Under the pieces are notes generated by a model. It saw only the letters and a list, made by a program, of their open reading frames with translations, made no database searches and was not told the origin of the DNA. A DNA stretch of 64,000 bases from Lingula anatina. Its lineage: Eukaryota > Animalia > Brachiopoda. The translations under genes and the position numbers were made by a program. The DNA lies in contig CM120648.1 of the NCBI GenBank assembly GCA_051362555.1, positions 19,464,587 through 19,528,586 on the forward strand. The letters run 5' to 3'. Below, piece after piece: positions 2,821-62,873 of this stretch; within the stretch, counting starts at the first letter, position 1; the number at the start of each line of letters is the position of its first letter.

Positions 2821-3393
2821 ACATTATTAATAAACTGCATTATACTAACAATCATCATTCCAGATGACCCCCCCTCCCCACAGACCTGTTAACAATTACT
2901 TACATTATTAATAAACTGCATTATACTAACAATCATCATTCCAGATGACCCCCCCTCCTCACAGACCTGTTAACAATTACTTACATTATTAAGAAACTGC
3001 ATTATACTAACAATCATCATTGCAGATGACCCCCCCCCCTCCTCACAGACCTGTTAACAATTACTTTCATTATTAATAAACTGCATTATACTAACAATCA
3101 TCATTCCAGATGACCCCCCCTCCCCACAGACCTGTTAACAATTACTTACATTATTAATAAACTGCATTGTACTAACAATCATCATTCCAGATGACCCCCC
3201 TCCCCACAGGCCTGTTAACAATTACTTACATTATTAATAAACTGCATTATACTAACAATCATCATTCCAGATGACCCCCCTCCCCACAGGCCTATTAACA
3301 GTTACTTACATTATTAATAAACTACATTATACTAACAATCATCATTCCAGATGACCCCCCCTCCCCACAGGCCTGTTAACAATTACTTACATT
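2821..3393. repeat. Tandem array, ~81-bp unit x7, duplicating the DIS3L2 5' splice site and intron start
   Basis: Unit acattattaataaactgc...gttaacaattactt. On the minus strand units read AAT|GTAAGTAATT, the same as the real donor at 3390 (one copy mutated). Confidence 0.95.
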
Positions 3394-3558
3394 CCACTTC
3401 AGGGGCCGGTCATCAGCCTTAAGAATTCACTGGACATGAGTGAAGATGGTCACTTTCTGGGTGACCTCCCTGCGGTGGTCATCATCTGGGGCCCACACCA
3501 GGGTCAGCTCAGGACATTTACGGACCTTCTGGTAGGAGAAACTGATCAGGGGAAGTTT
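3391..3558 (-). pseudogene. DIS3L2: DIS3L2-like penultimate exon (S1-domain region) with in-frame TGA at 3427-3429
   Basis: AG/GT-bounded 168-nt phase 0/0 exon: KLPLISFSYQKVRKCPELTLVWAPDDDHRREVTQKVTIFTHVQ*ILKADDRPLKWN. Matches the QKVGKKPELTLVWEP...ITIFSLVEVVLQA region of DIS3L2. Confidence 0.85.
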
Positions 3559-3801
3559 CTGGAAACACGAAGCAATGGTCTTTATCATATAAAAAGATGT
3601 ACACAGTTTGCACATCAGCAATGAAACTGTTTAAAAGGATGCCATCAAAATTTCCCTGAACTTTGTACATTTTAATGTAAAAATTAAAATAAAATTATGC
3701 TACAGAAAGTTCAAGTAAAAACTATGAAGAGGACAGCAATATATTATGCATATATATAATATAAAGTGACTGAAAAAGTAAGCGATGGCAAAAACAGAGA
3801 C

Positions 3802-3968
3802 CAGGGGAAGATCCAGAGATATTTTCTGACAGTCTTCCAAATTATCTTTGGTGATCCATTCTCCATTTTTGATCATATTCTGACAGAAAAAAAATCAGAT
3901 CACCATCAATGTCAACTTGAAAAATTCTGATCATCCACCAGAATACACCTTAATTCCATCTGCCCCTA
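3802..3968. mobile_element. MITE-like repeat (CAGGGG..GATCCAG / ATCTGCCCCT ends)
   Basis: Imperfect terminal inverted repeats; related partial copy at about 45557-45650. Confidence 0.5.
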
Positions 3969-4016
3969 TAGACAAGCATAGATAAAGTGCCCCGACCCTC
4001 CACTTTCCTTACTCAC

Positions 4017-4121
4017 ATCACAGTACACTCTCTTCACCACTCCAAGCTTTAGCACCAAAACATCAAAACCTTTCTCCAGGACTCCCATCACCATCCCTTG
4101 TTCCTCCAGTGGACCACATTC
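4017..4121 (-). pseudogene. DIS3L2: DIS3L2-like exon ([35 protein letters not shown])
   Basis: 105-nt phase 0/0 exon with acceptor ttatttccag and donor gtgagt. Close match to DIS3L2 [35 protein letters not shown]. Confidence 0.9.
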
Positions 4122-4458
4122 CTGGAAATAATAAGGTAAGACAAATTCAGATATATCCTATATAACTTGTTCTTCTAGTGGACCACATTCCTGGAAAAAA
4201 TAAGGTAAGACAAATTCAGATATATCCTATAACTTGTTCCTCTAGTGGACCACATTCCTGGAAATAATAAGGTATGACAAAGTCAGATATATCCTATAAC
4301 TTGTTCCTCTAGTGGACCACATTCCTGGAAGACATAAGGTATGACAAAGTCAGATATATCCTATAACTTGTTCCTCTAGTGGACCACATTCCTGGAAGAC
4401 ATAAGGTATGACAAAGTCACATATATCCTATAACTTGTTCTTCTAGTGGACCACATTC
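4097..4458. repeat. Tandem array, 67-bp unit x~5.3, duplicating the DIS3L2 3' splice site plus ~25 nt of exon
   Basis: Unit cttgttcctctagtggaccacattcctggaaataataagg...atcctataa; minus strand reads ttccag|GAATGTGGTCCAC in each full copy. Confidence 0.95.
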
Positions 4459-4699: not shown

Positions 4700-5019
4700 C
4701 AGTACTTGTATATATTTAGCTGACAATAATGACGTACAATAATCTAGACAATCTAGTGGTTGTAAAGTACTTGTATATATTTAGCTGACAATAATGACAT
4801 ATATTAATCAAGACAATCTAGTAGTTGTAAAGTACTGTAATATATTAAGCTGAAAATAATGTCATATATTAAACAAGACAATCTAGTAGTTGTAAAGTAC
4901 TTGTATATATTTAGCTGAAAATAATGACATATATTAACCAAGACAATCTTGAAGTTGTAAAGAACTTTCAAATATTTAGCTTAAAATAATGTTATATACT
5001 TAATTAAGACAATCTAGTA

Positions 5020-5096
<77 letters not shown>

Positions 5097-5975: not shown

Positions 5976-5978
5976 AGA

Positions 5979-6555: not shown

Positions 6556-7039
6556 TATATATATATACCTCTCTAAATAACTGATTTAATCTGTGTAAAT
6601 AGATAATCCAGTTATTACAGTAATCACCTTAAGATTCATATCTTTTGACATTTGTGTTTATTTCAATATATAAATTACACACCAGTGTATGTCTTGTTTT
6701 CCTTTTTATGGACAGACTCTGTCTGGACATTCACTCCTCAGCCGCATCTGCTTTTGTCTATAGTGCTGTCTATGCTGTACTTTCTTCATTAACACACAAC
6801 ATCAAATATCTTCATAAATATACGGGCAAGCCAAAGTCCCTACAGAATTTAATGCAGATGGAATTTAACCACAGTGAAAAGACGATAGATTGACACTGTC
6901 CATGATTAAGACAGTGCTCTAGTACTTGCTAAGTAGTTGCAAATAACCATTTTGGTAATAATTTCATCACAGAAACCATAACAGCCCTCTGATTCACAAC
7001 ACATAACAGTTTAAAGTTTGCATTTTAACACTGAGATAT

Positions 7040-7345
7040 CAGGCTTGCTCAGTGACTGTGTACATGTGCTGCCACTTACCGGTGACCAATTGCACCAGCA
7101 TGGCACAAGAGGCAGAGGTACTGGTCAGCTGTATGTACCATGGGTAGGGTGTACAGACAGCTATGGCCACATCTTCATTGCTGACTGTTATAACAGGATA
7201 GTGGCACTGAGTCCACAGGGACAGTTGATCAGATACATTGTCACTAAGGATGATGATAAACTGGTGTATCCTACGTACAGCAGTAGTCATCAACCCTGCT
7301 GACCTATTGGTGGCAGCTGAGGCACAGAGTGAATTGAGGACCTTC
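7040..7345 (+). pseudogene. NHL-repeat (TRIM2/3/71-like beta-propeller) C-terminal fragment
   Basis: HQHGTRGRGTGQLYVPWVGCTDSYGHIFIADCYNRIVALSPQGQLIRYIVT, then a frameshift near 7275 into AVVINPADLLVAAE. No upstream domains are visible. Confidence 0.8.
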
Positions 7346-8595
7346 AATACTCGAAATGAAACATATTGCTCAGATTTTACATATTGTAATACTGGGCTTT
7401 TTAACTGGAGAGCATCGCAAATCGCTACTGAGCACAAGCATGGCGATTCGTTGCAATTCCATAACTCATAAGCATCACAATTTCCAACCGAGTGCTTATA
7501 GTAATAGTGGTATCACCTTTAGTCTGAGGTCATTATTTGTGGCGAGTAAATCCCATCGCAAAGGCCTTTGCACATACATGATTAGTCATTTTATGTGCCT
7601 TTCATGTAATTAAACATACAGTGTCTTTCATGTAATTAATTGGGTTTCTAGGGATAATAGCATATGTATAACAATGCATGAAAGCTAATGAAAGATGGAG
7701 TCACTCGGCACCTCTGATAGAAAAAAAAACTTGCAGTAAATTTTCATGTGTTAAAGTCATGTTTCGTCACGCATAAAAGATCAACTTTCAACATTTCATA
7801 TATCATGTTATATTTTCTGATGAATGTTCATCTGTGTAGTCTTTTGATAATAATTATCTGTCAAACAATCAAGAATCACAACAGCAAGTTCACTTTGTTA
7901 CCATTGAAGTAAAATACTGACAATACTTTATGAAAACGACATCCATCTTTCAAAAACTGACGTGTGGGTTATCTTCTCTATGATCTCCACACTAAAGCAA
8001 TAGTCTAGAAATATATGCAAAAGTCTTCACATTTATCGTGTAACATCTTTGATCTTGTAATATCTTCATTTCAATTAAAAAGAATTAAAAAGAACGACTG
8101 TTTGATGATATTCTTTTAATGAACTGGTAATTTTTTTTCTGGTACTTATACAATTTTATAGTTAATTTTCATTTCTCCCATTTTTATTTGTAAAATACAA
8201 AAGTGCACAGACTTTGCGTACATTTAAGATCAAATACCGTAAAAGGCGAGTAACTGAGAATTATTGTCGACATTGCTATTTTAAAGTCAAAATTTGTTTG
8301 TTTTTTTTTTTTTTTCATATGGATCATTTGTTATGAATATTGGCATACAGAGACAAATAATCTTAAGTTTCAAAAATGATTCCAAAAGAAAAAATACTTA
8401 GCAAAAGAAATTGACATTGGCCAAACACAAAGTCTTAACAGTCAAAACTGGGTAGGGCCTCGGGATGCTTCAATGCAGGCCGCGATCTGTTGGTGCCTGC
8501 ATGCTTCGGATGAAGCCCTCATCACGCTTATTCGGAATCAGCAGGAATGAAGAAGAATGAGCCTGAACGAAGAATTTTTAAAATTCACACCACAT

Positions 8596-9298
8596 TCCTC
8601 TCTCAGCAGCTACTGTGCTGGTAGGTACACATGTATGCTAGTACCTGTTATACAACGAGTTATTTCAATGACAGTATCCTCTCTCAGTAGCTACTGTGCT
8701 GGTAGGTACACATGTATGCTAGTACCTGTTATACAACGAGTTATTTCAATGACAGTATCCTCTCTCAGTAGCTACTGTGCTGGTAGGTACACATGTATGC
8801 TAGTACCTGTTATACAACGAGTTATTTCAATGACAGTATCCCCGCTCAGTAGCTACTGTGCTGGTATGTACACATGTATGCTAGTACCTGTTATACAACG
8901 AGTTATTTCAATGACAGTATCCTCTCTCAGTAGCTACTGTGCTGGTAGGTACACATGTATGCTAGTACCTGTTATACAATGAGTTATTTCAATGACAGTA
9001 TCCCCGCTCAGTAGCTACTGTGCTGGTAGGTACACATGTATGCTAGTACCTGTTATACAACGAGTTATTTCAATGACAGTATCCTCTCTCAGTAGCTACT
9101 GTGCTGGTAGGTACACATGTATGCTAGTACCTGTTATACAACGAGTTATTTCAATGACAGTATCCTCTCTCAGTAGCTACTGTGCTGGTAGGTACACATG
9201 TATGCTACTAGTACCTGTTATACAACGAGTTATTTCAATGACAGTATCCTCTCTCAGTAGCTACTGTGCTGGTAGGTACACATGTATGCTAGTACCTG
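8596..9298. repeat. Tandem array, 81-bp unit x~8.7
   Basis: Unit tcctctctcagtagctactgtgctggtaggtacacatgtatgctagtacctgttatacaacgagttatttcaatgacagta; copies nearly identical. Confidence 0.97.
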
Positions 9299-13713: not shown

Positions 13714-15393
13714 TGTCATAGATTAGTATAATCATATATATGGAGGATCATGTCATAGATTAGTATAATCATATATGTGGAGGATCATGTCATAGATTAG
13801 TATAATCATATATGTGGAGGATCATGTCATAGATTAGTATAATCATATTTATGGAGGATCATGTCATATATTAGTAAAATCATATATGTGGAGGATCATG
13901 TCATAGATTAGTATGATCATATATGTGGAGGATCATGTCATATATTAGTATGATCATATATGTGGAGGATCATATCATAGATTAGTATGATCATATATGT
14001 GGAGGATCATGTCATAGATTAGTATAATCATATATTTGGAGGATCATGTCATAGATTAGTATGATCATATATGTGGAGGATCATGTCATAGATTAGTATA
14101 ATCATATATGTGGAGGATCATGTCATAGATTAGTATAATCATATATGTGGAGGATCATGTCATAGATTAGTATGATCATATATGTGGAGGATCATGTCAT
14201 ATATTAGTATAATGATATATGTGGAGGATCATGTCATATATTAGTATGATCATATATGTGGAGGATCATGTCACAGATTAGTATAATCATATATATGTGG
14301 AGGATCATGTCATAGATTAGTATGATCATATATGTGGAGGATCATGTCATAGATTAGTATGATCATATATGTGGAGGATCATGTCATAGATTAGTATGAT
14401 CATATATGTGGAGGATCATGTCATAGATTAGTATGATCAAATATGTGGAGGATCATGTCATATATTAGTATAATCATATATGTGGAGGATCATGTCATAT
14501 ATTAGTATGATCATATATGTGGAGGATCATGTCATAGATTAGTATGATCATATATGTGGAGGATCATGTCATATATTAGTATGATCATATATGTGGAGGA
14601 TCATATCATAGATTAGTATGATCATATATGTGGAGGATCATGTCATAGATTAGTATAATCATATATTTGGAGGATCATGTCATAGATGAGTATGATCATA
14701 TATGTGGAGGATCATGTCATAGATTAGTATAATCATATATGTGGAGGATCATGTCATATATTAGTATGATCATATATGTGGAGGATCATGTCATATATTA
14801 GTATGATCATATATGTGGAGGATCATGTCATAGATTAGTATAATCATATATGTGGAGGATCATGTCACATATTAGTATAATCATATATGTGGAGGATCAT
14901 GTCATATATTAGTATGATCATATATGTGGAGGATCATGTCATAGATTAGTATAATCATATATGTGGAGGATCATGTCATATATTAGTATAATCATATATA
15001 TGTGGAGGATCATGTCATAGATTAGTATAATCATATATGTGGAGGATCATGTCATAGATTAGTATAATCATATATGTGGAGGATCATGTCATAGATTAGT
15101 AAATAGTATGATCATATATGTGGAGGATCATGTCATATATTAGTATAATCATATACGTGGAGGACCATGTTATATATTAGTATAATCATATATGTGGAGG
15201 ATCATGTCATAGATTAGTATGATCATATATGTGGAGGATCATGTCATAGATTAGTATAATCATATATGTGGAGGATCATGTCATATATTAGTAAAATCAT
15301 ATATGTGGAGGATCATGTCATAGATTAGTATTATCATATATGTGGAGGATCATGTCATATATTAGTATAATCATATATGTGGAGGATCATGTC
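13714..15393. repeat. Minisatellite, 37-bp unit x~45
   Basis: Unit tgtcatagattagtataatcatatatgtggaggatca with recurring G/T and A/G variants. Confidence 0.98.
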
Positions 15394-17305
15394 AGCTTGA
15401 TATTTTTACATTTACAAGCTTGTCACAATATTTTTAAAAATGTAAAATATTCAACAATGAACGTGGTTAGTAACTATTTAGTTGTTAATTGTGCTCTACT
15501 TTCTGGTTTAAGCAAGGTCCTTAAAGAACTCTTAAAAATCATTACAATTGCAGCACTTCCAATTAAACAGTAAACGATATTTGAATATGGGTAAATCAAT
15601 AATTGCACATGACAACAATTTACAGCCTGGCATGATTTTCCCCGTTACGTTATTTGTTGCACTGTCGGTCGATACAGAAATTATTAGAAAACAATTTGAC
15701 TAAAAATTAGAACAATTTTGCAACTTCAAGCTTCGTGACACGTTTTAATATACAACGTAATACACCCCATATTTCTACAAGTGTTCCCTCCTCAAAATGC
15801 CGAAAGACAAAAATATTATTTTACCATGCCGTCAGAAAATCGGCTTCAGCTTGGCACTCACGGCTCCAGTCCGGTGTACTTCCAGCTAAAAAAAGAGCAG
15901 GCAGCTTTACGTCTTACACCACTGGACGTCATATCATGTGCACTTCCGGCACAATTAGTAGGGGAGCCAAACTCCAAAAGCCTTCAAAAAAGGGTAGTAA
16001 AAAAATTTAATGATAGAAAATTTTTGAACATATCGTTGGAGAGCCTGATACCTGGGGTTTACGAATTTGCTTATTGGACAAATGGGCTCAATTGCAAAAG
16101 TGCCCAAAAATCCAAGATGGCCGCCAGCCATGGTGAATGCACAGAATTAGCATCAGTTATAAAAAGTGATTAATATTATTTATTTGCTAAAGTGTTGATT
16201 ACTTTTATTGTGTATATTTTGTGGAAATATGTACTTCCTGGTGATCTGCAGCAATAATTTGTCAATTGGATACAAAATGGCCGCTTCATCCAAGATGGCC
16301 GACAATATTTCACTATTTGGCTGCCACACACCCATTACACACCCATTACCATTATGAGTCAGAAGCACAATGTATATTTTATTGGAAGTTGAAATACCTT
16401 ATTAAATGAAGTACATTTTATTTTTATTTTACAATGTGCGGGTATATTGTTTCAATTTTAAAGGTAAATTTGAGATGGTGTCTTAACCCAAGATGGCTGC
16501 TTTATCCAAGATGGCGGCCAAAAATGTACCCATTTTTGCAATTAATTCATGTTTTATCTAATCTAGAATTACTTTCAATCATGATAGAAGCAACAAACCA
16601 TCAAATATAAAATATGTACAGTTTAACCTGTATTCCTCTCTCTGTACAGTATGAAACTTTATGGTTAGAAAAAAATCCAACATGGCCACCATGCACGTCG
16701 TCCGTTATGGCCCAAAGGTGCGCACAGCATGCACCTTATTTGCAAAATCAAATATCTTCTTTAATGAAGTATATTTAATGTTTCCTTTGCAATTTATCGG
16801 TAAAGGACAATTGCTTATTTTTAAAGGTAAAGCTAAGACCATATCTTTTTTCAATATGGCTTCTTTATCCAAGATGGTTGCCATTATTTTACCATTTTTG
16901 CAACTGAGGCACATGTTCTATAATCTAGAAATTGTTTCAACCATGGTAAAAGCAATATTTCAAGAAATATTAATTCTCTTAAATATTTCCTACATTTTAA
17001 TATCTGTAAAGAATATGATTAGGTATTTTTCATTAGAGAAAAATCCAATGTGGCTGCCATATACCCCTTACCTTTACAAATCAATGGTACCATGTGTACT
17101 TTACTGATAGTTGAAATCTCTTATTTAATGAAATATGTTTTTCAGGTGGTTGTGATAGAGATTTTATAGATGACACTTGTCATATCTAGATGGCATGTAA
17201 TGAACTTTTCTTTATATATGGAGTGAATGTCATAAACTTTTAAAAATTAGGATGCTTAATTCAAGTGTGGGCTTGAAATAGTACATTACGATTTCGACTA
17301 ACTTA

Positions 17306-19436: not shown

Positions 19437-21464
19437 AAAACACCAATGTAATAAATAAAACTAGTATCTATTGCAGAGTTCGATAAATGTTGTTTGAAGT
19501 TGCAATAAAATATGAGTTTGCCTTTGATTCCATGAAAAGAGATTTGCATGGAATCAGAATTGTTATTGTACAAAACCTTTAAGCTTCTTTTTGATAAACA
19601 AATAAATAGATAATGATGTTATTCTCGACATGTACTTTTTGACAACATAGTTGTTATGCTATAAAATACAATGGTCCAAGAACATGCATAGGAATGTGAA
19701 GAAACTTGTAAATAATTGACTGTGAATAAACATGTCATCTTAACTTTATCTGCAAAAAGAGAAAAACATTCTCATACACCCATATATTATAAAATAAAAA
19801 TGAAATGTACTTCATCAAAGGAGATATTTTAACTTTTGATGAGATACGTGACTTTGTTTCATATGAGGATAATGATAAGGGATTTATGGTTGTCATTTTG
19901 GCTGTTTCTATAAGCATAAAGCCTTCATCTTGTATATAGATAGTGAAAATGCAGGAAGTTAGGGTAGAGTATCTATGTTTGATGACGTTTTGCTTCTAGA
20001 AGATTGAAAGAAATTCTGACGTAAAGAAAAAGGGATTCAATTGCAAAATTGGTCAACTTTTGGCTGTTGTCTTGGATAGAGTGGCCATATTGGATTAATA
20101 GGCAGTCTATAATTGACCTTTATAAAATTCAAAAACAAGTGTACTTTACCCATATGTTTTAAAATGAAAGTATAATATACTTCTTTAAAGAGATATACCA
20201 ACTTTTGATATGATATATGTTTCAACTTTGACTCATATTGGTAAGGGGTGTATGGCAGCCATATTGGATTTCTCTCTAAGCTAAGAACGATTCCCAGTCA
20301 TTTAACCTATACATCCATAAAAATAAATATGACTAACATTCTAAAAATTCTATTGAATCAGAAAACACAAGCCTCCAAGCATTCAGATAGCAAAAATGCA
20401 CAGAGTATTGGAGAAATTCTATATTTGGTAAATTTTAGCTTTTTCTATAATTGAAAGTAGTTCTAGATTACAGAAACCATGACATCATTGCAAAAATTTG
20501 GCCGCCATCTTAGATAAAGTAGCCATCTTGGATTGAGATAGCTCTTTGAATTAAGCTTTAAAATATTGAAACAATTACCCTTTACCCAAAAATTGTAAAA
20601 TAGAAATAACGTTTGCTCATTTAAGTAGATATATGAACTTTTCTATAAAAGACAGATGGTACCCTTGCCTCATATTGGTAAGGGGTGTGTGGCGGCCATA
20701 TTGGATTTTTTTTTGCATTCACAAAGCCTCTATATTATACATAGATGGTACAAATGCAGGAAATAATAGAGGCAATATTTATTTGATAAATGTTCGCTGA
20801 AATCATTATTGAAAGAAATTCTAGCTCTAGATCAATGAAAAGAGGATTTAATTGCAAAAAATGTTGAAATATTGGCCGCCATCTTGGATAAAGTGGCCAT
20901 TTTGAATCCAATTGACCAATTCCTGCTACAGATCAGCAGATAGTACATTTTCCCACAATGGACAATAAAAATATACACCCTGAAACAAACTGAAAATATC
21001 AACAATTTTTCATAATTTATCCATTTATTGCATATTCCTTAGGGGTGGCGGCCATCTTAGATTTTTGGGCACTTTTGCAATTGAGCCCATTTGTCCAATA
21101 AGCAGATTCATAAACCCTAGATATCAGGCTCTCCGCCCATGTGTTCGAGGATTTTATATCATTAAAATTTTTTTCATCCTTATTTTTTGCCTTGGCACCC
21201 CTACTAAATCTTTTGTCCTCCGTTTCCTTTATTACAACATATAATTTTTTTCAACGTTAACGGTCACTTAATATTTTCAGATTATCCAATAACAGCGCCT
21301 TTTGCTATCTGGGGTCACTAGAATAATGTAATAAATTAGGGGGTATTCAGCTTCATTATCATACCAACAGGATGGAGTCATCTCTGTGGGGATTCTCGCT
21401 GAAGTGCAGTCAATGTAATCAGTTAAATAGTGTAGCACGTCACCTTGCGAAGTTACAGTAGTAA

Positions 21465-22191
21465 TAATAATTATGTTTTCCTTGTACGGCGTTTTAAAAA
21501 CGTCAGAAATGTTTTAATCCCTATTATATCCTGTGAATAGAAGGGGGCGGACAAACAATGGAGTGCCGTCTCATCCCTTCAAAATTCGAAAGCAAAATCA
21601 CAATAGTTTAGGCGTAATAACACACAATACATTAGGCGAGTGAACCGCATGACGCCTGTTTCTGTTGTCTAGCGCGAGGGCGACAATCCGCTGTAACTAG
21701 GTGTAGCAGGATACATCAGCCAGAAGGTCCCCATTGTTCGTTGCGGCGATAGGATTATAGCTTTAAGGGGCTAGAACCCATGCTAACGCGTGCCACTCCC
21801 GTGGCCAATTATCCTTTTGTTCACTAGCTTGGCAAGCGCAGCTGATCATGTTTTAAGTGTTGCAAGAAAACTGCTAGTTTAATTTAGTATCAGTTATTTA
21901 ATTCAATATGAAGTGTTCTGTGGTCAAAATTTGAATTTGATAAACATGCATCAGCATCGTACATCAGCATGATCAACAAATCAAAGTTAAAAGATGCTCC
22001 GTACATAAATTTCCATCATCGCGACCTCTGTAAAAATAGATTACTGTTTAGAAATAACAAAGAAAGAAACATTATTAATACAATTTATTCACATAACAAG
22101 CTGACGTATTGCCCCAATTACTACATTAAGTCATATTTTATATAAAATAGTAGAGCAAATCCATAAAAGGATAAATAATAGAAAGTCTTAA

Positions 22192-22242
<51 letters not shown>

Positions 22243-24311: not shown

Positions 24312-24375
<64 letters not shown>

Positions 24376-24884: not shown

Positions 24885-24951
<67 letters not shown>

Positions 24952-39122: not shown

Positions 39123-39166
<44 letters not shown>

Positions 39167-45538: not shown

Positions 45539-46085
45539 TATATAATTGAATAAGTGCAGGGGTGGATCCAGATGTATCTTCTAACGGCGTCCATATTTTC
45601 TTCATTGATCCATCTTCCATTTTTGACCATCTGACAGAAAAATGGCCCCATTCACAATGGACGATCCGTGTACTTAATGATCAGCCGAGTACATATGGCT
45701 GAACACAGTTCAAAAGCAATGCCGCTGATACCTGATGGTCTCCCTGACTAAACACATGCCTTTAAATGGATTAAATCTCTGCTCTGATGTTTAATTGTTA
45801 GGCCCCTGCAGCAACGGCATGTGTGGTATTTACTGTTTGTGTAAACTAATTAGACACAAAGAAAAATTTGCATACAAGCTAGGCACTCCAGCTATCAAAT
45901 TTGGGCTTTGTTCATTGCATGTCTTACCTTAATTAACTATTTGTATACCCACTTAAACTAATAATGCACTGGAACAAACAAGAAAGCAAGCACTCTTACC
46001 AAAAGGATGACTGAAAATCAAAACAGACAAGATAGCATTTTCAAAATAAAGAAAATAATGTAATAAATAATTTTTAGAATTTTAA

Positions 46086-46467
46086 TTAAAGGTACATACA
46101 AACCGAGCATCGGTGGAGCGCGGATTCCCAGTAACACATATAAACCACTTTACTAGTTTCTTCTACGACTCTAATAGATTAACATGCCAAGTGATAAACT
46201 GAATAAATCACCTGATCAACCATAAAAGAGCTTTAGAGTGCCCCTTTCTTTAAATTTATGGTTGGAAATTTAACCTACTTTCGTGACCTACTTTTCTGCC
46301 CCATTGACATACAGCATAGAATGCTAGCAGAAAAATCTGTTCAAACATCACTTTCGGTTAAATTAAACAATGCCTTTTGGTAATTCTCTGAGTTATACTA
46401 CTTGAAACTGTATGCTGGCATTTGGTTGGTTTTTATGACAAAAAATTGACTTTGTATGTATCTTTAA
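46086..46467 (+). mobile_element. Kolobok-type non-autonomous element, TTAA TSD
   Basis: ttaa-AGGTACATAC...GTATGTATCT-ttaa; copy of 5298-5682. Confidence 0.8.
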
Positions 46468-46705: not shown

Positions 46706-49700
46706 ATGGCCGCGCTGTCCAGCTCAAGCATGAAGGTAATGCGTCCGTTTATTCAAGACAATGATACGATCAGGATATCATTGCCGATAACACTCAATGG
46801 GAGATGGGAACAATAGTGCGCCCCTGAGGGGGTTACTCATAATATAGATGGTTTAAATGTGAATTCCTGGCCTTTTGTCTTTAGTTTCATTACTATTACC
46901 TGGCTCAAGGTGCGTTATCAAGCCGGCAAATAGAAGTCCCAGGCCGCACCTCTGTCATTTGTAACGCCGTTATTGTTATCGGCGGCTGTTCTAAATGAGG
47001 AAGACGCAATGAGAAAATCAAGATATTATCTTGAAGGGAAATGTACCCGTCACTTCTATTCATGTCTACGTTCTATTTAGGACCATTTAACGATTACCTG
47101 GCTCGTACATGGAGATCATTCGCAATGCAAATGGGACAAGATGTCAATTTTCATATCTTCTTATTCGTAGCGGACTCCGTTCACGTAAGATCATCTGCGG
47201 GATATCATTTGCGATTCGAGAGAGACAAAAAGGCAATCTTCATATCTTCAGCGGGAGATCGTTCGCGACATAGGCGAGAATAAAATGCACTTTTCATATT
47301 AGTTCAAGGGAACTTCATTCGTGGAAGATCGTCAGCAGGAGGTCATTATTTTAACCCCCCTCCCCCTTTGAATTTTGTAAATAATATATATTTTTCATTT
47401 TATCTATAACCCCCCTTCCCCCGCTCACGGCATATCTTCAGCGGAGAATCGTTCGTGTAAGATCGTCAGAGGGAGATCGTTCGCGTTCCGAGCGAGACGA
47501 AAAGGCAATTTCTATATCATCATCGGGAGATCGTTGCGATGTAAGCAAAAATGAAATGCAATTTTCATTTTGGTTCAAGGGATTTAGGGAACTTCGTTCG
47601 CGGAAGATCGTCAGTGGAGATCATTACTTAAACCCCCCCCCCCCACACACACACACACTATGGATTTTTAAAAAATATTCATTTTCATTTTATCTTTAAT
47701 CCGCCCCCTCCCCCGCTTTGGGTATATCTTCAGCGAGGAATCGTTCGCGTAATATCCTAAGGACTTTGGGGTCATTTCTTAACTACTCATAATGTGACAG
47801 TTTTTTACTTCTGCATGTTCTTAGCAGAAATAGAAATAGATCCTAAAGTATCAGTTAATGAGTGGAGAAATTGGCTTATTTTAGGAATATTGGATATGGG
47901 TATATCCCATACATTAAACCAAGCTGTTTCATTTTTGTGGAAGAAGTGCCTAAATACATCATGGAAAAAGCGTTCGAGAAATTAAATTGGTTTCATGCAT
48001 TCGCAATGGACAAAAACGGTTGAGTCTGACATTTTTTGTCTTTTGCTCTTTTTTTTTATGACACATCTCGTGTCTGTGCATAGAGACATTATTTGTCTTT
48101 TAACACCTTAGTTGATGTCAATGCTGTGGCTTTCAGAGATTACACTGCAGTTGGAAAACCATGTAACATTTTTGTGGATTTTTCCCTTTTTACATTTTGA
48201 CATTCTCAAGGTGTGAATTTGAAGTGCAATCAGCATGAATATGTATACTAACTACATTTTCTGAATGTCCACATGAAGAGATAAATTTAGTATATTATTG
48301 AAATTATTGGTTTTATTTAATCACCACTAATTGTCTTAGGTTTATAATTCCAATCTACTATTTTTTATTTCTCCTGTACTTTTTTCTTACAGCGTCTGTT
48401 TAAAACATCCAGAGAAACTTCTTACTTGGGCCAGTCCAGCCAGTCCCGTGTTAAGACCACACAGAAGAAAAGGAAATACAGCGATGACGACAATGATGAT
48501 GATGATGATGATGACAGCAGTTACCACCATGGCAACCCTTCAACATCAAAACAAATCAAGTTGACACCCAGCAATACCTCTCCTGCTAAAAGAAAAGGTG
48601 TTACATCAACTAAAAAATGGAAGACTTCCGATAATGAAGATGTACGCTCCTTTGAGTTACTTGTATTCGTACGGAATTCTCTTAAGAAGATTAAAGATTT
48701 CTTGAAAACATTATTTCACAATATGATGATATCGTATTTTACAAATGAAATCAGTGGGTTCCATGTATATTGAGAACCTATAATATGTGCACCTCTATCA
48801 CCAACAATATTCAAGGAAAGCTGTGTCACTTAATTTTCTCTTACTAATAAATAATATTGCACCGAACTATGCACATCAATATTTTTTGCTTTTTGTCTGT
48901 ATGTTTGACAACGTTGCAGTTTTGTTTGCCATTTTTTCTGTTTTTTTTCTTCTTTCATTTTATCTTTCTTTTTTGTTTTGTTTTGTTTTTATTATTCCTT
49001 ATTATCAATATATCATTATTTCAGGACCTAAGACAGGGGCCAGTCTCTGGCCAGCAACAGGAGCAGCAAGGTGATGCCAACTTCCAAAGAAGTGACAATT
49101 TAGTTCACGAATCCCCATCTTTATCAGTCACTGAAGACCACCTGGAGGAACAAGCTGGCGTCCACTTTGAAACAAGGAGGAAATCAGGCCATGACTTGCC
49201 ACCTTTACCACCACAACAGGACCCTGTGGCTGCTGATGATCAAGACCAGGGTGTAACTGATCCTCAGACCATCAAAACAATGGGAACCCAAGCTATTAAC
49301 CAGGCCCATGGGGATAATCAGTTAGAAAGATTACCTACGGCAGTGACACAAGAGATTGCTGGGGTTCTAAGACAGGTCCCTGCTAACACAGGCAACACAA
49401 ATGTTACCTTCAATTTGCAGCTGGTTTACCACAATAATAACTCAGAAAAGGCATCAATGACACACATGAAAGAGAACAATGTGACAACATCTTTTCATAA
49501 ACATGTCCCTCCAAGTGTGAAAAAACGACTGAATGAGACACTTTCTCAAAATGATGTATGGAACCAAGTGAAGAAGATGTATGACATTTCAGATGAAACC
49601 CCATGTCCTCCTGATGTTGTATCTTTTTTGTTGTCAGAAGTTGAGGGTTCTATTGCATCTTTCATCAGTGTGTTGTTAAAGTTAAAAGAACGCCACAGAG

Positions 49701-50502
49701 AAGGACAGCAAGACATACCACAAGATTTGATTAATGAAGTCAAGGTAACTGATAATATGGTCTAAAATATAGTCAAATAAAGTAACCAGTCTTTAAAGTT
49801 TTAAAATGACATTGACAATTCATCTTGTGACTCTAAAACAATTTTTTTCCACATTTAAAACATTTTCTTTCTCTGTAAGTCCTAATTCAATTCAACAAAG
49901 TTTTTCATTTCTTCATATTCCAAGTGAAAGAGTAAGAATTAGAATTAAATGTATAAGACAATGGGTTGGCTGTTTGGGGTTACCAGTATTGCTAAGTGTA
50001 TTGAAAGTCATTTACATAACATCATGGTTTGAAGGAGTAGAAGTTGTAAATGTGGCTTATTATATTTCTCTTCTAGGAAGGACTTCTGAGTGAAATGGAG
50101 TACAACAAACTGAGGGAGAAAGTGATTGAATTTGCTGCGGAACTTTCCATTTATATGGAAAGAATTTTAGATTACCTGTATCAGTTTAGTGTAATACCAG
50201 ATGAGGAGACAACAAAACTTAAAAATGATGCAAAGAGAAATCCGCAAGATGCATGTAGAGATTTGTTGAAAGCACTTCTTGCAATCAGTCCTAAAAAAGA
50301 ACCAATTAAACATCTGAAAGCTGCATTCAGGGATTCTGGTCTTTGGCATCTGGCAGATGAACTAGAAGTCAGCTACCAGGATGTAGAGGATGAATTACAG
50401 AAACATGGAGGTGGCCGGCCTATTTGTGAAGAGCCGTTAGCAATAGGAATGGCAGCTCCCCCCACACCTGCTACAGGTGAAACCCCTACTGGAGAACATT
50501 AA
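46706..50502 (+). CDS. Death-fold adaptor-like protein (low-complexity N-term, Death domain-like, CARD-like), 474 aa; exons 46706-46735, 48393-48641, 49025-49744, 50077-50502
   Basis: All introns GT-AG and phase 0 with no stops: MAALSSSSMK/RLFKTS...DNED/DLRQG...NEVK/EGLLSEMEY...GEH*. DD-like PPSVKKRLNETLSQNDVWNQV...SIASFISVLLKL. CARD-like LREKVIEFAAEL...ILDYLYQFSVI...ACRDLLKAL...AFRDSGLWHLADEL. Exon 1 is less certain than exons 2-4. Confidence 0.8.
47150..47755. repeat. Degenerate nested tandem repeat in intron 1
   Basis: Recurrent catatcttcagcgggagatcgttcgcg motifs within two ~280-bp higher-order units. Confidence 0.75.
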
Positions 50503-50922
50503 AACTACATGTGTACAGTATTTGACAGTATGTGTCAAGATTGTTTATGCTATTTGGGTCTCCGTGGACTAAGACATATGGTATTCCCACATATATTGAC
50601 ATCAGACAAATAAAGTGGTTGTCTGTATTTAATGATTTTGAACAAGCCTGCTGAAAAACTACAGTGATGCAGACATTTATCTATACTGTTCAGCATCAAA
50701 TGTGAACCCTAACTTTTAACAGGAAGATGACAGAAATTTTAAGCAAAACCCAGTGGACTATGAAACCATCAATCCTGTTAGGAGACTTCTTTGTTGATTT
50801 GTCTTAGATCTCCTAAAACCTATGTTGTGTTCTTATTTTACAATACCAAAAACAACCTTAAGGTTGTCCCTCCAACCTTAAGGTGCGTCAGAGGACACTC
50901 TGTCCTCCTTTTTGACCATATT

Positions 50923-51548
50923 TATGTACAGTACAAGGTGTAAAACCAGTAGAAACAGGTACACAGTGCACCTATTACAGTGTCATGATCCTGTATATGT
51001 TATTATACCCATCTATGTACAAGGTGTAAAAACCAGTAGAAACAGGTACACTGTGCACCTATTACAGTGTCATGATCCTGTATGTGTTATTATACCCATC
51101 TATGTACAAGGTGTAAAACTAGTAGAAACAGGTACACAGTGCACCTATTACAGTGTCATGATCCTGTATGTGTTATTATACCCATCTATGTACAAGGTGT
51201 AAAAACCAGTAGAAACAGGTACACTGTGCACCTATTACAGTGTCATGATCCTGTATATATTATTATACCCATCTATGTACAAGGTGTAAAAACCAGTAGA
51301 AACAGGTACACTGTGCACCTATTACAGTGTCATGATCCTGTATATGTTATTATACCCATCTATGTACAAGGTGTAAAAACCAGTAGAAACAGGTACACTG
51401 TGCACCTATTACAGTGTCATGATCCTGTATATGTTATTATACCCATCTATGTACAAGGTATAAAACTAGTAAAAACAGGTACACTGCACCTATTACAGTG
51501 CCATTATCCTGTATGTGCTATGATAACTTATGCTATTATACCCATCTA
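50923..51548. repeat. Tandem array, 86-87-bp unit x~7
   Basis: Unit gtacaaggtgtaaaaaccagtagaaacaggtacactgtgcacctattacagtgtcatgatcctgtatatgttattatacccatctat. Confidence 0.95.
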
Positions 51549-51747: not shown

Positions 51748-52262
51748 AATATGTATACAAGGTATTATACTCTCAGTTTTGTCCCACACAGAGTATAGTT
51801 TGGTAATTTAACACACGTATACATGTAAGTCTATTTATTATATTGATATCAATATGTATACAAGGTATTATACTCTCAGTTTTGTCCCACACAGAGTATA
51901 GTTTGGTAATTTAACACACGTATACATGTAAGTATATTTATTATATTGATATCAATATGTATACAAGGTATTATACTCTCAGTTTTGTCCCACACAGAGT
52001 ATAGTTTGGTAATTTAACACAAGTATACATGTAAGTCTATTTATTATATTGATATCAATATGTATACAAGGTATTATACTCTCAGTTTTGTCCCACACAG
52101 AGTATAGTTTGATAATTTAACACACGTATACATGTAAGTCTATTTACTATATTGATATCAATATGTATACAAGGTATTATACTCTCAGTTTTGTCCCACA
52201 CAGAGTATAGTTTGATAATTTAACATGTGTGTACATGTAAGTCCATTTATTATTTTGATATT
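51748..52262. repeat. Tandem array, 103-bp unit x5
   Basis: Unit aatatgtatacaaggtattatactctcagttttgtcccacacagag...tattgatatc. Confidence 0.95.
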
Positions 52263-52711: not shown

Positions 52712-52763
<52 letters not shown>

Positions 52764-56647: not shown

Positions 56648-57749
56648 TCCGACACCCATATTCTTTCTTAATTATATCATGAATTTGACTCTCGATTTAT
56701 ACCGCTCACTTAGCAGGTGACAAGATGATACAACGATTAGCGTAGCATTTATATAAGTAATGGATTAAGACAGACATGGAGTATTCGTTATATTCAATGG
56801 CAAAGTGTATCAACATTTTTGGGCAACAATGTTTTTCTTGTTACGTTTTATTAAACTTTATTATTGTGTTTTCAGATTTGAGGGTAATTATTTCCACGAA
56901 TATGATTTCTCGCTTGAGAGAGTAAGGTGGTAGTGACATTATAAAGCCATCTCCGTGCGTTTTATTGAAATATCCCCTCTAACAACGCAGATTTTGCCCT
57001 CAGCGGTATCGGTTATCTGGACAACATATTGTAAAACAGTTTTCACAAAATTTGATAAGGGTGGTTCAAAGGAAGGAAAGAAATGATTACAAATTAAACA
57101 GGCTCTCGATCTTGTATTCTCTTATGCTTCATTACCATTTACATTTTGGTGAAGGTTTGCATTCAATTGTGGGGAGATCTGGAGTTTCATTGGTTTTATT
57201 GAGAAATACAGGATGAGGGTAAACTCTGCGTAGTCTTCAGTAGTAAAACTGGGATATTAAATAAAAAGAATCAAAAAACAACATACACGTTACCAGAGGA
57301 AAGTAGCCTGCAAGTTTGGTTCTTCTCCACCCTCACCTCTCCCCCTCTCTGTTTCTCTCCATCTCTCTTACTCTCTCCCTTTCCCCCTCTATATCTCCCT
57401 CTCTTTTTCTCTCTGTGTGAGTACTAGATTCTCTCTCTCTCTTTCTCTCAAACACTGTAATTCACATGTACAGTATATGTACACAAGATATTGTTTTAAA
57501 ACGCCTTAGGTTGTATTGTGCATAGCAATTGTACAGTATTTTTACAGTGGCTGATTTGCTACATTACTATAGCTTTTGTAAGCAACGTGTTCAAATAAAC
57601 AAAAAATAGTTAAGTTTTAGTCCAATTTTGTTCAATTTTCTTTTTTTTACTCTCCAAACAATTTGCTTTAACATGGAGTCACCCAAGAGAAACATAACCT
57701 TTATTTTACATTCTCAGGTGAAGCAGAGCTTTTTGGGAGTTGTACTGAG

Positions 57750-57972
57750 ATGGCTCCAAATCACAAGTCTACAGCACGGCCACTGAGAACCAACGTGCTG
57801 CAGGATGAGGTGACCGTTAGTGAGGACGCGGAAGTGACCATTACTGGGGACAACACAGAGTTCGTGTTCTCTGCCGCCAGCGAGGTGTCAGAGTTCCTGA
57901 CGTCAAGTTATGACGTCAACGACACGTCATTATTTGACACCATCCCGGACCCAGAACCAGAGATTTTCTACA
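57750..57972 (+). CDS. Probable first coding exon of an unidentified gene (exon 57718-57972)
   Basis: Acceptor ttttacattctcag and donor gtaagt; GC-richer open frame MAPNHKSTARPLRTNVLQDEV...TIPDPEPEIFY, ending in phase 1. Confidence 0.55.
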
Positions 57973-58329
57973 GTAAGTCGTAATTTTATCAGTTGAATTC
58001 GTTCCAAATATGTGGGAAACTTATTTATACACATGAATGACACAAAACACACACATACACACGCGCGCGCACGCACACACACGCACACACACAGAAATAA
58101 TAAAAATTAAACGTTCACTCGAGAAAAATGTTGGACCTTAAGTATGATCTCAAAATCATGGCGATGGTCGATCTTTACATCTACATGTAGGCCTATTTAA
58201 CATACTTGTACAGTGTATCCACTCATTTTCTACAGTGTGATACATGTACTATCGAAAATACTTGCCAAATTAAATCATTATAAAATCATAATAATGGCCG
58301 TAGCGGGATCTCGCGGCTTCGCAGCCTAA

Positions 58330-59573: not shown

Positions 59574-60039
59574 TAATGCTAAAGACACAGTTCACTCTAG
59601 GGAAATGACAACGCTGGAGAAGGCGGAGCCAATTTGAAGGCTTGTCATTGGAAGAGTTATGTACTGGGAGGGTGATTTAGTAAAAGGGCAAGTCACTGGA
59701 AAAGGGTCAGTCGCTTAAATAAGCAATTCACAGGAGGGATGAGGTGATTGCACATTTAGTTTTCATCATTTGTCTGTTTAATTATTGTGACATTCATTTT
59801 AGCTGAGCCTATAGTGTCTGAGTTGTAGAACATGTCATTTGCTTGATATGTTAATATCTGTGTCACTGTGATTGGATTATATGAGGAATCACAAGTTTTG
59901 AATAATTTCAAAGCAGTTCTTAACAAATAAGAACTATGCTTGCAGTGCAGTTTATATAAAAGGGAGTATGTTTTCTATTGGTAAATGATGCATCAGGTTA
60001 AAATTATTGTCCGATGGTACCTTTTCTTTCCTTTTACAG

Positions 60040-62463
60040 ATTGGTGTGTGGGTTTGGCGGTGCTCTGTTCATTTATTTCCACAGGAAAATTATCCACTTT
60101 ATACGAAAACAGAGGAATTTGTCCTCCTTTCTCCAGAAGAAGTAAGTACCAGTTACAGCAGGAGTCATCCACTGTATGTGACTTACAAGAGGGTTTGCAC
60201 ATGTATATGTCACATACAATAGACCACAAGTGTTTGTATAGCTGCTTCAAGCATTTATAGGATGATTACACTTGTATTTTGCTTACAACACAGTGAAGCA
60301 TGTTAATATAGATGAGCGAGCAATTATTCTATTGTTGCTAACAGTAAATGTTTTTATGATTGTTATCACATAAGGAAATGTTTGGGATAATTATGTGAAA
60401 AGGACATAATGAAGATACCTTTTATTAGCATTCAGTTTATTCCCATTTTATGTGTGATATAATGTGTAGTAAATATAACGTGTTTTATTTATTTCAGTTG
60501 ATTCATCTATCCTACTGTGATAACATTTTATGTGTAGATATAATGTGTAGTAAATATAACGTGTTTTATTTATTTCAGTTGATTCATCTATCCAACTGTG
60601 ATAACATTTTATGTGTAGATATAATGTGTAGTAAATATAACATGTTTTATTTATTTCAGTTGATTCATCTATCCAACTGTGATAACATTTTATGTGTAGA
60701 TATAATGTGTAGTAAATATAACGTGTTTTATTTATTTCAGTTGATTCATCTATCCAACTGTGATAACATTTTATGTGTAGATATAATGTGTAGTAAATAT
60801 AACATGTTTTATTTATTTCAGTTGATTCATCTATCCAACTGTGATAACATTTTATGTGTAGATATAATGTGTAGTAAATATAACATGTTTTATTTATTTC
60901 AGTTGATTCATCTATCCAACTGTGATAACATTTTATGTGTAGATATAATGTGTAGTTAATATAACATGTTTTATTTATTTCAGTCGATTCATCTATCCAA
61001 CTGTGATAACATTTTTGATATCCACTCTATCCTTTCCCCTGGGGCTGGGGCAGTATACAGCTGGAATGGTATGTATCATGGGGGGTGGGGGTGTTATTCT
61101 TCCCCCTGGGGCTGGGGCAGTATACAGCTGGAATGGTATGTTTTCTAGAAACATTTTTCACAAGACTAGGAAGCCAACATATGATTAGTTTGTCCGATTT
61201 ACCAACACAACTTACCAAACACCCCTTTCCTGCATTAGTAATAGATACCTCAAAATGTACAGAGATTATACTGCTGTGGGCATAAATCACTTTCCACAAC
61301 TCATGACAGTCCATCTGTCCTTTCAGTTCTCATGGAGAAATTTAATGTACTTTCAGTTAACTCACCGAGAAGCTGTGAATGAGTTGTTCAGTAACTTCAC
61401 ATGGTCCACGGGGAAAGCAGAGAACTTAGATCTGGACCAACTAGAGGTGCTCAGTCACTGGAATCACCCGGACACCAGCGTCTACGTCACACTGACTTTG
61501 TTTATTATTATACAGGTGAGATTTACTCTTTGTATGAGAAGACCAAACATCAACCCCAGTCTAATTGTATGAAGATTTTAAGAGTTGGCAATTTGAAAAT
61601 TTGTCTGTTATAACCTAACTTTAAAATATGCCATGTGTCTCTGTAATACTTAAATTTTTTGGTATATATAAATAATTTTGAATGGTTGTGCACTGATTTC
61701 AGTTGTACAGAGTGATCTCACACAAACAGTTTACTTATAATAATAATGGATTACATTTGTTTTCAGTTTGTGACAGCTGCTTTGGCTGGTTCCCTCCCCA
61801 TTCCTGCTGGAGTGTTCATTCCTGTCTTCACTATAGGTAAGTTGTGTCATCATTTTACCACTTACTGTTGCCTTGTCAACTCTTCCCCAGGACTGCGGAC
61901 TGTGCAATTACATATTATAGGAAAGCTTTTTTAATAACATTTCATTTTGTTTTGTTGCATTTCTTTGATATGTTAACATGTTCAGAAGTAGGTATGAGCA
62001 TTTTGAGTTCAGTTATATTGATAATTCTTCATTCATTTGAATAATTTTCATCATCCTTGGCTAGTCTACTAATTATTATAAGGTCAGATGCTGAATTTAA
62101 AAAGAATACAAATTAAAGAGTATATGAGTATTAACACATGCTCCCTGTAAAGTCTGGTTTGGAGTGCACTGACCTCGACCTACAGTGACCTTGACCCACC
62201 GTGACCTTGACTTATAGTGACCTGTCCACACTGGTCTGATGGTGTGACACACTTGAAGATTATGACAGCTGTTTTTCTGCCTAAATTCTCCTGCACTATG
62301 CTGCCATCTCCAGGTTGAAATTAGCTAAGAGAATGTTCTTAATTATTCCCAGGTGCTGCCTTTGGTCGTCTTGTAGGAGAGTGTTTGGCGACGTGGTTCC
62401 CCAGTGGAGTGAGGATGGGAGAGCAGGTGTCTCCTATAGTCCCTGGAGGATATGCTGTAGTAG
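60040..62463 (+). CDS. CLCN2: ClC-2-like chloride channel, five central exons: 60040-60141, 60984-61068, 61357-61515, 61767-61836, 62353-62463 (partial, possibly a duplicated fragment)
   Basis: Phase-consistent GT-AG exons: [18 protein letters not shown]..., [66 protein letters not shown]...[10 protein letters not shown]. These are ClC-1/2 motifs including GxFxP. Confidence 0.93.
60445..61014. repeat. Tandem array, 81-bp unit x7, duplicating a ClC 3' splice site plus ~30 nt of exon
   Basis: tgttttatttatttcag|ttgattcatctatccaactgtgataacatttt x6, followed by the real cag|tcgattc at 60984. Confidence 0.97.
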
Positions 62464-62873
62464 GTAAGTGTATGACTACATGGTATCCCAGTGAAGTCAG
62501 GATGGGAGAGCAGGTGTCTCCTATAGTACCTGGAGGATATGCTGTAGTAGGTAAGTGTATGACTACATGGTATCCCAGTGAAGTCAGGATGGGAGAGCAG
62601 GTGTCTCCTATAGTACCTGGAGGATATGCTGTAGTAGGTAAGTGTATGACTACATGGTATCCCAGTGAAGTCAGGATGGGAGAGCAGGTGTCTCCTATAG
62701 TACCTGGAGGATATGCTGTAGTAGGTAAGTGTATGACTACATGGTATCCCAGTGAAGTCAGGATGGGAGAGCAGGTGTCTCCTATAGTACCTGGAGGATA
62801 TGCTGTAGTAGGTGAGTTTATGACTACATGGTATCCCAGTGAAGTCAGGATGGGAGAGCAGGTGTCTCCTATA
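62377..62873. repeat. Tandem array, 87-bp (29-codon) unit x~5.7, derived from the ClC exon and its donor
   Basis: Units start at 62464, 62551, 62638, 62725 and 62812 (partial); each follows GTAGTAG and begins GT[A/G]AGT. Confidence 0.97.

What the first reader, a model, noticed from the sequence alone, without database searches (positions are those of the whole stretch)
2821..62873. Tandem arrays repeatedly nucleate exactly on splice junctions
Seen: five duplications in two unrelated genes each contain a real splice site. They are the DIS3L2 donor (81 bp x7, 2821-3393), DIS3L2 acceptor (67 bp x5, 4097-4458), ClC acceptor (81 bp x7, 60445-61014), ClC donor (single ~40-bp copy, 61101-61141) and ClC donor (87 bp x5.7, 62377-62873). 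That is 5 of the 15 visible junctions in these genes. In each case the exon stays intact and the extra copies extend into the intron. Inference: either a splicing/transcription-coupled or microhomology-driven process amplifies exon-intron boundaries, or junction-spanning duplications are simply the exon-overlapping ones that survive selection. Either way the spliceosome must choose among stacks of near-identical sites.
Basis: partly seen in the sequence, partly recalled or inferred. Interest (0 to 1): 0.8.

Follow-up and report, generated by a model that had tools for sequence, protein, structure and literature searches.

The report
Lamp-shell splice-junction "mirage" minisatellites
In two gene pieces of a lamp shell (brachiopod), five short tandem repeats copy an exon edge and its splice signal into the neighbouring intron; this repeat type is already known from lancelets, birds and a human gene, the RNA examined uses the copy next to the exon, and the spare copies are likely harmless by-products of ordinary local duplication.

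Summary
The five duplications are real and each includes a true splice site. The window is Lingula anatina. The genes are a 3' piece of DIS3L2 and a middle piece of ClC-2; neither has its 5' exons in the window, and DIS3L2 carries a stop absent from nearly all reads. The arrays hold 20 decoy GT/AG sites; 16 would create a premature stop. RNA from three studies uses the exon-proximal site (acceptor 60984: 15 of 15 listed loose ends; donor 61068: 17 joined reads, no decoy joint listed), at low depth. Arrays appear in DNA of two other animals. 'Exactly on junctions' is overstated: units span the site, with 3-75 exon bases. 'Exon stays intact' is geometry. Local enrichment exceeds chance (5 of 18 duplications; 0.5-1.3 expected), but the window was picked post hoc. 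This is the known 'mirage' class of amphioxus (also F7 VNTR, chicken 'exon stuttering'); I found no report for brachiopods. The scan has already found it elsewhere in this genome and in other invertebrates. The cause of the junction bias stays open.

The parts
2821..3393 (-). DIS3L2 donor mirage, 81 x7.1; unit = first 81 intron bases, 3 exon bases; 5 intact decoy GT donors, 1 mutated to GA; 5-base microhomology at both ends
   Evidence: RNA depth 0, 0 and 0.3 in the bin below 3382
4097..4458 (-). DIS3L2 acceptor mirage, 67 x5.4; unit = 42 intron + 25 exon bases; 4 decoy AG acceptors; far end cut mid-unit against a dispersed repeat
   Evidence: RNA depth 0 in 4141-4230 in 3 of 3 runs
4017..4121 (-). 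DIS3L2 exon (start of the Dis3l2_C_term domain)
   Evidence: Pfam PF17877 E=1e-13; RNA joint 4017-3558, 24 reads
3391..3558 (-). DIS3L2 penultimate exon; in-frame TGA at 3429-3427 in the window only
   Evidence: (3427 differs in 31/31, 3/3, 9/10 reads and in all X6 depth)
   Evidence: canonical acceptor, frame and stop
60040..60141 (+). ClC-2 exon, first one present in the window
   Evidence: tblastn 97% to P0001/P0002; its 3' end is the loose end of 15 reads at 60984
60444..61015 (+). ClC-2 acceptor mirage, 81 x7.1; ~50 intron + ~31 exon bases; 6 decoy acceptors, all followed by a C>T change that makes an immediate in-frame stop; 6-base microhomology at both ends
   Evidence: RNA depth 0 in 60860-60973 in 3 of 3 runs
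60984..61068 (+). ClC-2 exon with a mirage at both edges
   Evidence: RNA loose ends at 60984 and joint 61068-61357
61027..61141 (+). ClC-2 donor duplication, period 67, 1.7 copies with linker; 1 decoy donor at 61136 (frameshift if used)
   Evidence: present in X3 contigs and read as exon in database model P0002
61357..61515 (+). ClC-2 exon, no array
   Evidence: 100% to P0001/P0002; RNA joints
61767..61836 (+). ClC-2 exon, no array
62353..62463 (+). ClC-2 exon upstream of the 87-base array
   Evidence: joint 61836-62353, 5 reads
62389..62873 (+). ClC-2 donor mirage, 87 x5.4-5.6; 75 exon + 12 intron bases; 4 decoy GT donors, open and in frame (+29 aa each); far end cut mid-unit against unrelated sequence
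   Evidence: RNA falls off at about 62463, depth only 4-6

Best explanation
These are 'mirage' minisatellites: short tandem repeats whose unit spans an exon-intron boundary, which likely began as ordinary microhomology-mediated local duplications of 65-90 bases and likely grew by minisatellite turnover, and which are likely tolerated because splicing uses the copy next to the exon. Steps: (1) SHOWN: units span real splice sites and make 20 decoy GT/AG sites. (2) INFERRED: the seed is a DNA-level tandem duplication; 5-6-base microhomology is seen at the two arrays with both ends readable, and breakpoints fall at varying distances from the junction. (3) SHOWN: decoy copies are homogenised among themselves and differ from the exon copy; INFERRED: by unequal exchange or slippage. 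(4) SHOWN at low depth: mature RNA uses the exon-proximal site at donors and acceptors; INFERRED: by exon definition, with decay of stop-containing mis-spliced RNA as a back-up for 16 of 20 decoys. (5) INFERRED, least certain: the excess at junctions arises because an exon-anchored array keeps a permanent, selected seed copy and cannot be removed whole, whereas purely intronic arrays decay or are deleted; no splicing-coupled machine is needed.
For: Anatomy. Homogenisation: in the 87-base array the exon part differs from the real exon at 7 of 75 bases in 4 of 4 decoys, and by 0 among decoys; in the ClC acceptor array 6 of 6 decoys share one C>T. PMC3087553 reports the same pattern for BflGb6 (passages). 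RNA: 15 of 15 listed loose-end reads join the upstream exon to 60984; 17 reads join 61068-61357 and no joint from 61135 is listed; depth 0 over acceptor decoys in 6 of 6 runs. Not an assembly artefact: X6 contigs have summed depth 1200-7300 and 1800-3600 on array bins against about 150-600 on unique bins, and carry only the expressed alleles at 6 sites; X3 holds the 67-base duplication with its linker; model P0002 reads the decoy copy. Same size class away from known junctions: 65, 81, 87 and 103-base arrays at 4701, 8596, 50931, 51748; arrays of period >=30 cover 10.7% of the window. Precedent.
Against: Step 5 is untested, and 0 of 5 in-gene duplications are purely intronic (P=0.002-0.003), which a position-blind process explains poorly without such an added bias. 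RNA depth is low (5-30 reads per run on ClC; donor 62463 only 4-6) and comes from other animals whose array lengths are unknown. One X11 read runs past donor 61068 into the linker, and about 10 bases of one X18 read pass donor 3391: nascent RNA or rare decoy use. Only the nearest one or two units of each array were in the laid stretches. Poly(A) RNA hides decayed products. Contig depth is no copy number, and the X3 contrast is weak (940-1800 on arrays against 56-900 elsewhere). Microhomology of 5-6 bases in AT-rich DNA is weak, and three arrays have no readable far end.
Confidence: 0.7

Rival explanations
1. A mutational bias: breaks or template switches occur more often near exon edges (polymerase pausing and R-loops at splice sites, or linker DNA beside exon-positioned nucleosomes), so duplications are seeded there preferentially.
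For: 5 of 5 in-gene duplications hit junctions; one 85-base exon has a mirage at both edges; the 1.7-copy duplication at 61027-61141, plausibly young, is also at a junction. Unreviewed scan notes on other pieces of this genome report high rates (leads only).
Against: Breakpoints are not fixed to the junction (3-75 exon bases); arrays of the same unit size lie away from known junctions; the window was selected post hoc; no genome is held for a proper test.
Confidence: 0.2
2. The arrays are functional: decoy sites tune expression through unproductive splicing, or the in-frame 87-base donor array adds 29-residue repeats to ClC-2 isoforms.
For: The 87-base unit is in frame and open in 4 of 4 decoys; splice signals are intact in 20 of 21 decoy positions.
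Against: No decoy joint is listed in 6 runs; homogenisation alone keeps signals intact; the DIS3L2 copy here has a stop and lacks its 5' exons; the repeat would insert into the membrane domain (inference).
Confidence: 0.04
3. Assembly artefact: repeats were stacked by the assembler, and the gene truncations are mis-joins.
For: Both gene pieces end mid-unit inside an array and lack their 5' exons; the window has private variants not seen in X3, X6 or RNA; no raw long reads were examined.
Against: Units carry distinct, nested variants; array units appear at raised depth in contigs of other animals; P0002 contains the decoy copy. This bears on the arrays; the truncations could still be mis-joins.
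Confidence: 0.04
4. RNA-templated origin: reverse-transcribed or spliced RNA was copied back at exon ends.
For: Every unit touches an exon end.
Against: Every unit includes adjacent intron, none contains an exon-exon joint or poly(A), and breakpoints are not at the junction.
Confidence: 0.02

Closest known systems
Amphioxus 'mirage' minisatellites (Adh3, globins BflGb6/BflGb9, troponin C, PGBD5). Seen: passages of PMC3087553 and one passage of PMC3902484. The original Adh3 paper (PMC117041) is not held; known only through those citations.
   Same: Unit spans an exon-intron boundary; donor- and acceptor-side cases; duplicated AG/GT; normal mRNA; internal units homogenised; unit sizes (10-160 there) include 67-87.
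   Different: Another phylum (Brachiopoda); 5 of 15 junctions in two gene pieces; length polymorphism and somatic instability were shown there and not tested here.
Human F7 intron-7 37-bp VNTR (PMC1557585; abstract and Discussion read)
   Same: First unit spans a donor; identical downstream pseudo-donors stay unused; only the most upstream, exon-proximal one is chosen.
   Different: Donor side only; here two acceptor arrays also use the exon-proximal (last) copy, which 5'-to-3' scanning from the upstream donor would not predict and exon definition would (inference).
Chicken dot-chromosome 'exon stuttering' (bioRxiv 10.1101/2025.09.16.676548; passages)
   Same: Exon-edge fragments copied 1-44 times into the adjacent intron; local origin; mechanism left open there.
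   Different: There confined mostly to GC-rich dot chromosomes (190 of 236 introns) and of longer span; here AT-rich DNA (arrays 24-48% GC).
Intron gain by tandem genomic duplication (PMC3265369; abstract only)
   Same: Local duplication creates new splice signals.
   Different: There a duplication inside an exon creates a new intron; here existing sites are copied and no new intron or exon is in use.

Membership tests
Mirage minisatellite | Tandem repeat whose unit spans an exon-intron boundary | tested here: met
   5 of 5; one holds only 3 exon bases and one has only 1.7 copies
Mirage minisatellite | The boundary is a real, used splice site | tested here: met
   60984 and 61068 by joined reads; 3391, 4121 and 62463 by the edge of RNA coverage only
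Mirage minisatellite | Splice signals duplicated in the extra units | tested here: met
   20 decoys with intact GT or AG, 1 mutated
Mirage minisatellite | Normal splicing; no aberrant mRNA detected | tested here: met
   No decoy joint listed in 6 RNA runs; two single reads run past a donor; low depth; other animals
Mirage minisatellite | Concerted evolution of internal units, boundary unit excluded | tested here: met
   87-base array: 7 differences to the exon copy, 0 among decoys; shared C>T in 6 of 6 acceptor decoys
Mirage minisatellite | Copy-number polymorphism between alleles | tested here: inconclusive
   Contigs show variant units and poly-C length variants but no piece spans an array; depth is no copy number
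Mirage minisatellite | Somatic instability | not testable with these tools
   needs small-pool PCR or single-molecule reads of one animal
Retro-copied (RNA-templated) repeat | Exon-exon joints, loss of intron, breakpoints at junctions | tested here: not met
   all units include flanking intron; breakpoints 3-75 bases into the exon
Intron gain by tandem duplication | A duplicated segment is spliced as a new intron or exon | tested here: not met
   RNA joints follow the existing exons only

The most novel reading that the evidence does not exclude
In Lingula, and perhaps many marine invertebrates, a transcription-, splicing- or chromatin-coupled mutational process seeds tandem duplications preferentially at exon edges, so that a large share of splice sites is amplified, and arrays in turn act as breakpoints that cut genes into fragments (both gene pieces here end inside a mirage).
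Probability: 0.2. Interest if true: 0.65.

Novelty: new member of a known kind. Interest (0 to 1): 0.22.

Why it matters
As it stands it extends a known oddity to brachiopods and supplies natural test substrates: stacks of identical acceptors where the last copy is used speak to exon definition in an invertebrate with short (250-800 base) introns, and the in-frame 87-base donor array is a case where decay of bad RNA cannot hide decoy use. It also warns annotators: a database model (P0002) took a decoy copy for the exon. If the junction excess proved to be mutational, it would link splicing or exon chromatin to DNA duplication and give a route to intron gain; that is not shown here.

Tried and rejected
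Whole-genome enrichment test: no genome is held, so statistics are window-only. The look-up of sequencing runs listed no indexed RNA holder (no evidence either way); raw-read runs were laid instead. In one search most reads piled on an interspersed repeat (3800-3900), which crowded out loose ends at 3391 and 4121 (233 rows not shown; 98 variant rows not shown). A homologue search with DIS3L2 exon 3430-3558 found nothing; one with the next exon found 76 DIS3L2 relatives, none named as Lingula. Pfam gave no hit for five single ClC exons or for the sequence after 62873; ClC identity rests on P0001/P0002. Exons at 56875 and 57719, first taken for the ClC N-terminus, do not match P0001/P0002. The 8596 array as a sixth mirage: donor-like motif, no Pfam hit, untested, counted as a non-hit. 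Papers: the Adh3 paper is not held; searches for Lingula or brachiopod with tandem repeat, minisatellite or mirage listed nothing on this; one search found nothing; subscription journals are not searched; no supplements were read.
Full report
What was checked. The fifth was recovered by my own scan of all periods 30-300 (61027-61146, period 67). That scan found 18 local duplications in the window in all; 13 of them are not at a known junction. TRF arrays of period 30 or more cover 10.7% of the window, so this is minisatellite-rich DNA.

Identity. A ClC exon is 100% identical to two proteins named by their source as chloride channel protein 2 of Lingula anatina (P0001, P0002); P0002 carries Voltage_CLC and CBS domains. 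Two minus-strand exons match Pfam Dis3l2_C_term, and the first of them finds 76 DIS3L2 relatives.

Both genes are pieces. P0001 and P0002 match the window only from residue 323 and 683 on. Eleven DIS3L2 relatives, four of them full length, match only the last exons. The missing 5' parts of the two genes would face each other across the same 55 kb. The DIS3L2 piece begins mid-unit in its acceptor array, next to sequence that recurs at 50593-50666 (80% identity). The ClC piece ends mid-unit in the 87-base array; the gene may resume beyond the window. At six DIS3L2 exon sites all three RNA runs and the X6 contigs differ from the window; five of the six change or stop the protein, including TGA at 3427-3429, while the 12 listed sites that vary among runs are all synonymous (98 variant rows were not shown). 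The window's DIS3L2 is therefore likely a dead duplicate. For ClC, 15 of 16 exon differences tested are synonymous (3 adjacent differences at 61413-61415, in one run, were not tested), so that piece looks constrained or recent.

Anatomy. DIS3L2 donor: the unit is the first 81 intron bases with 3 exon bases, bounded by a 5-base microhomology that straddles the donor; 5 intact decoy donors and one GA. DIS3L2 acceptor: 42 intron + 25 exon bases; 4 decoy acceptors. ClC acceptor: about 50 intron + 31 exon bases, 6-base microhomology, 6 decoys. ClC small donor duplication: 33-42 exon bases + 6 intron bases + linker; 1 decoy. ClC donor array: 75 exon + 12 intron bases; 4 decoys. The units span junctions at varied offsets; only one has a breakpoint within 3 bases of the site. 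All contain intron and none an exon-exon joint, which argues against a spliced-RNA template. Decoys resemble each other more than the real exon (87-base array: 7 of 75 differences to the exon in 4 of 4, 0 among themselves; ClC acceptor: one shared C>T in 6 of 6). That the exon stays whole is a geometric consequence of any junction-spanning tandem duplication and is no evidence of a process.

Consequence of decoy use. 16 of 20 intact decoys give a premature stop or frameshift: 5 of 5 DIS3L2 donors, 4 of 4 DIS3L2 acceptors, 6 of 6 ClC acceptors (stop in the first codon) and the single ClC donor. The four 87-base donors are in frame and open (+29 residues each).

RNA (six raw-read runs from three studies, 6-26% of each read). 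ClC: 15 of 15 listed loose-end reads at 60984 carry the upstream exon, and depth is 0 over 60860-60973 in 3 of 3 runs. 17 reads join 61068 to 61357; no joint from 61135 is listed. 5 reads each support the next two joints. Coverage falls at about 62463 at depth 4-6; the 32-39 bases laid on the next unit fit reads placed on the exon copy (inference from bin depths). DIS3L2: 24 reads join 4017 to 3558; coverage ends at the exon edges (0, 0 and 0.3 below 3382; 0 above 4140 in 3 of 3). Against: one X11 read continues into the linker past 61068, and about 10 bases of an X18 read pass 3391; X11 had only 5 reads, partly intronic. The reads come from other animals and from the expressed gene copy, only one or two units per array were in the laid stretches, and poly(A) RNA hides decayed products.

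DNA of other animals. X6 contigs carry only the expressed alleles at the six sites above, yet show summed depth 1200-7300 and 1800-3600 on the two DIS3L2 array regions against about 150-600 on unique bins. X3 shows 940-1800 on the ClC arrays against 56-900 elsewhere (one repeat-hit bin apart) and a contig with the 67-base duplication and its linker. The tool warns that such depth is no copy number, and no contig spans an array. Model P0002, from another assembled locus, translates linker plus decoy copy in place of the real exon start. Together these make an artefact unlikely and suggest the arrays also flank the working genes (inference).

Is it more than chance? With arrays collapsed to one unit and 3 bases' tolerance, 5 of 18 duplications hit a junction against 0.51 expected (15 junctions; P=1e-4) or 1.31 (38 junctions, 23 picked by eye; P=0.008). 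Given placement in the two gene spans, each has a 27-33% chance, and P(5 of 5) is 0.002-0.003. The window was chosen for this pattern, the spans end at arrays, and a 16-base-period intronic repeat at 62170-62223 falls below my threshold. Selection against exon-internal duplications removes only 5-9% of placements and does not explain the lack of purely intronic ones. A modest real bias is likely; its cause is open.

Mechanism. Most likely a DNA-level microhomology duplication of 65-90 bases, the size class also seen away from known junctions (65, 81, 87, 103), expanded and homogenised by minisatellite turnover (inferred). It is tolerated because the exon-proximal site is used (shown at low depth). 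For donors this matches the F7 result. For acceptors the used copy is the last, which fits cross-exon definition better than scanning from the upstream donor (inference). I think junction arrays are over-represented mainly because their seed copy is held by selection on the exon, so they persist and re-expand (inference, untested); a mutational bias at exon edges is the main rival (0.2).

What is known. [quoted passage not shown] PMC3902484 (one passage) adds PGBD5 and troponin C. PMC1557585 (abstract, Discussion) covers F7. A chicken preprint (passages) screens 236 such introns as 'exon stuttering'. PMC3265369 (abstract) shows intron gain by duplication. The Adh3 paper was not available. Searches listed no report for Lingula or brachiopods; subscription journals and supplements were not seen. 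I reached the mirage reading before consulting the scan's notes; those notes (AI-written, unreviewed) report the same class on other pieces of this genome and in other invertebrates, and gave the lead to the chicken preprint.

Verdict. Observation confirmed; interpretation partly supported; a new member of a known kind. Interest 0.22.

Noticed in passing
window 8596-9298 (+), with 8500-8620 upstream: 81-base x8.6 array whose unit holds a donor-like GTAGGT after an open, exon-like stretch; candidate sixth mirage of an unknown gene. No Pfam hit; no RNA laid.
   Followed up: partly
window 2052-4458 and 60040-62873: DIS3L2 and ClC-2 are both pieces lacking their 5' exons, and each ends mid-unit inside a mirage array; arrays may be rearrangement or insertion breakpoints, or assembly mis-joins.
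   Followed up: partly
window 3407-4074: Six window-private DIS3L2 changes, five non-synonymous or nonsense; likely a dead duplicate that is absent from animal X6.
   Followed up: yes
P0002 versus window 61073-61135: The database gene model uses the decoy copy plus linker as exon and lacks sequence after the 87-base array: mirages mislead annotation.
   Followed up: yes
window 62390-62411: Run X17 exon alleles match three states of the decoy units rather than the window's exon: old array or conversion from array to exon.
   Followed up: partly
window 4701-5021, 13714-15394, 50931-51525, 51748-52261: Further minisatellites (65 x4.9, 37 x45, 87 x6.9, 103 x5) not at a known junction; the last two lie downstream of a CARD-like gene.
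   Followed up: no
window 48392-50502 (+): Three-exon piece of a gene ending in a weak CARD-like domain (E=9e-4, below cut-off).
   Followed up: partly
window 44150-45540 and 38395-38646: Decayed Tc1/mariner-type elements (HTH_Tnp_Tc3_2 E=2e-8; DDE_3 weak).
   Followed up: partly
window 21454-24884 versus 42002-46273: Several inverted and direct dispersed repeats of 0.2-0.9 kb at 74-91% identity; a 3800-3900 short interspersed repeat in the DIS3L2 intron is very abundant in DNA and RNA.
   Followed up: no
window 62977-63100 (+): Short frameshifted reading frame that recalls a SAP motif (from memory; no Pfam hit), probably in a mobile element abutting the ClC array.
   Followed up: partly
window 25168-26466 (-), 33052-34140 (+), 56875-57973 (+), 7015-7300 (+): Unidentified exon-like pieces: a Thr/Ser-rich frame broken by a frameshift, a small multi-exon piece, an acidic exon pair, and an NHL-like fragment (label recalled); no confident Pfam hits for those scanned (33052-34140 not scanned).
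   Followed up: no
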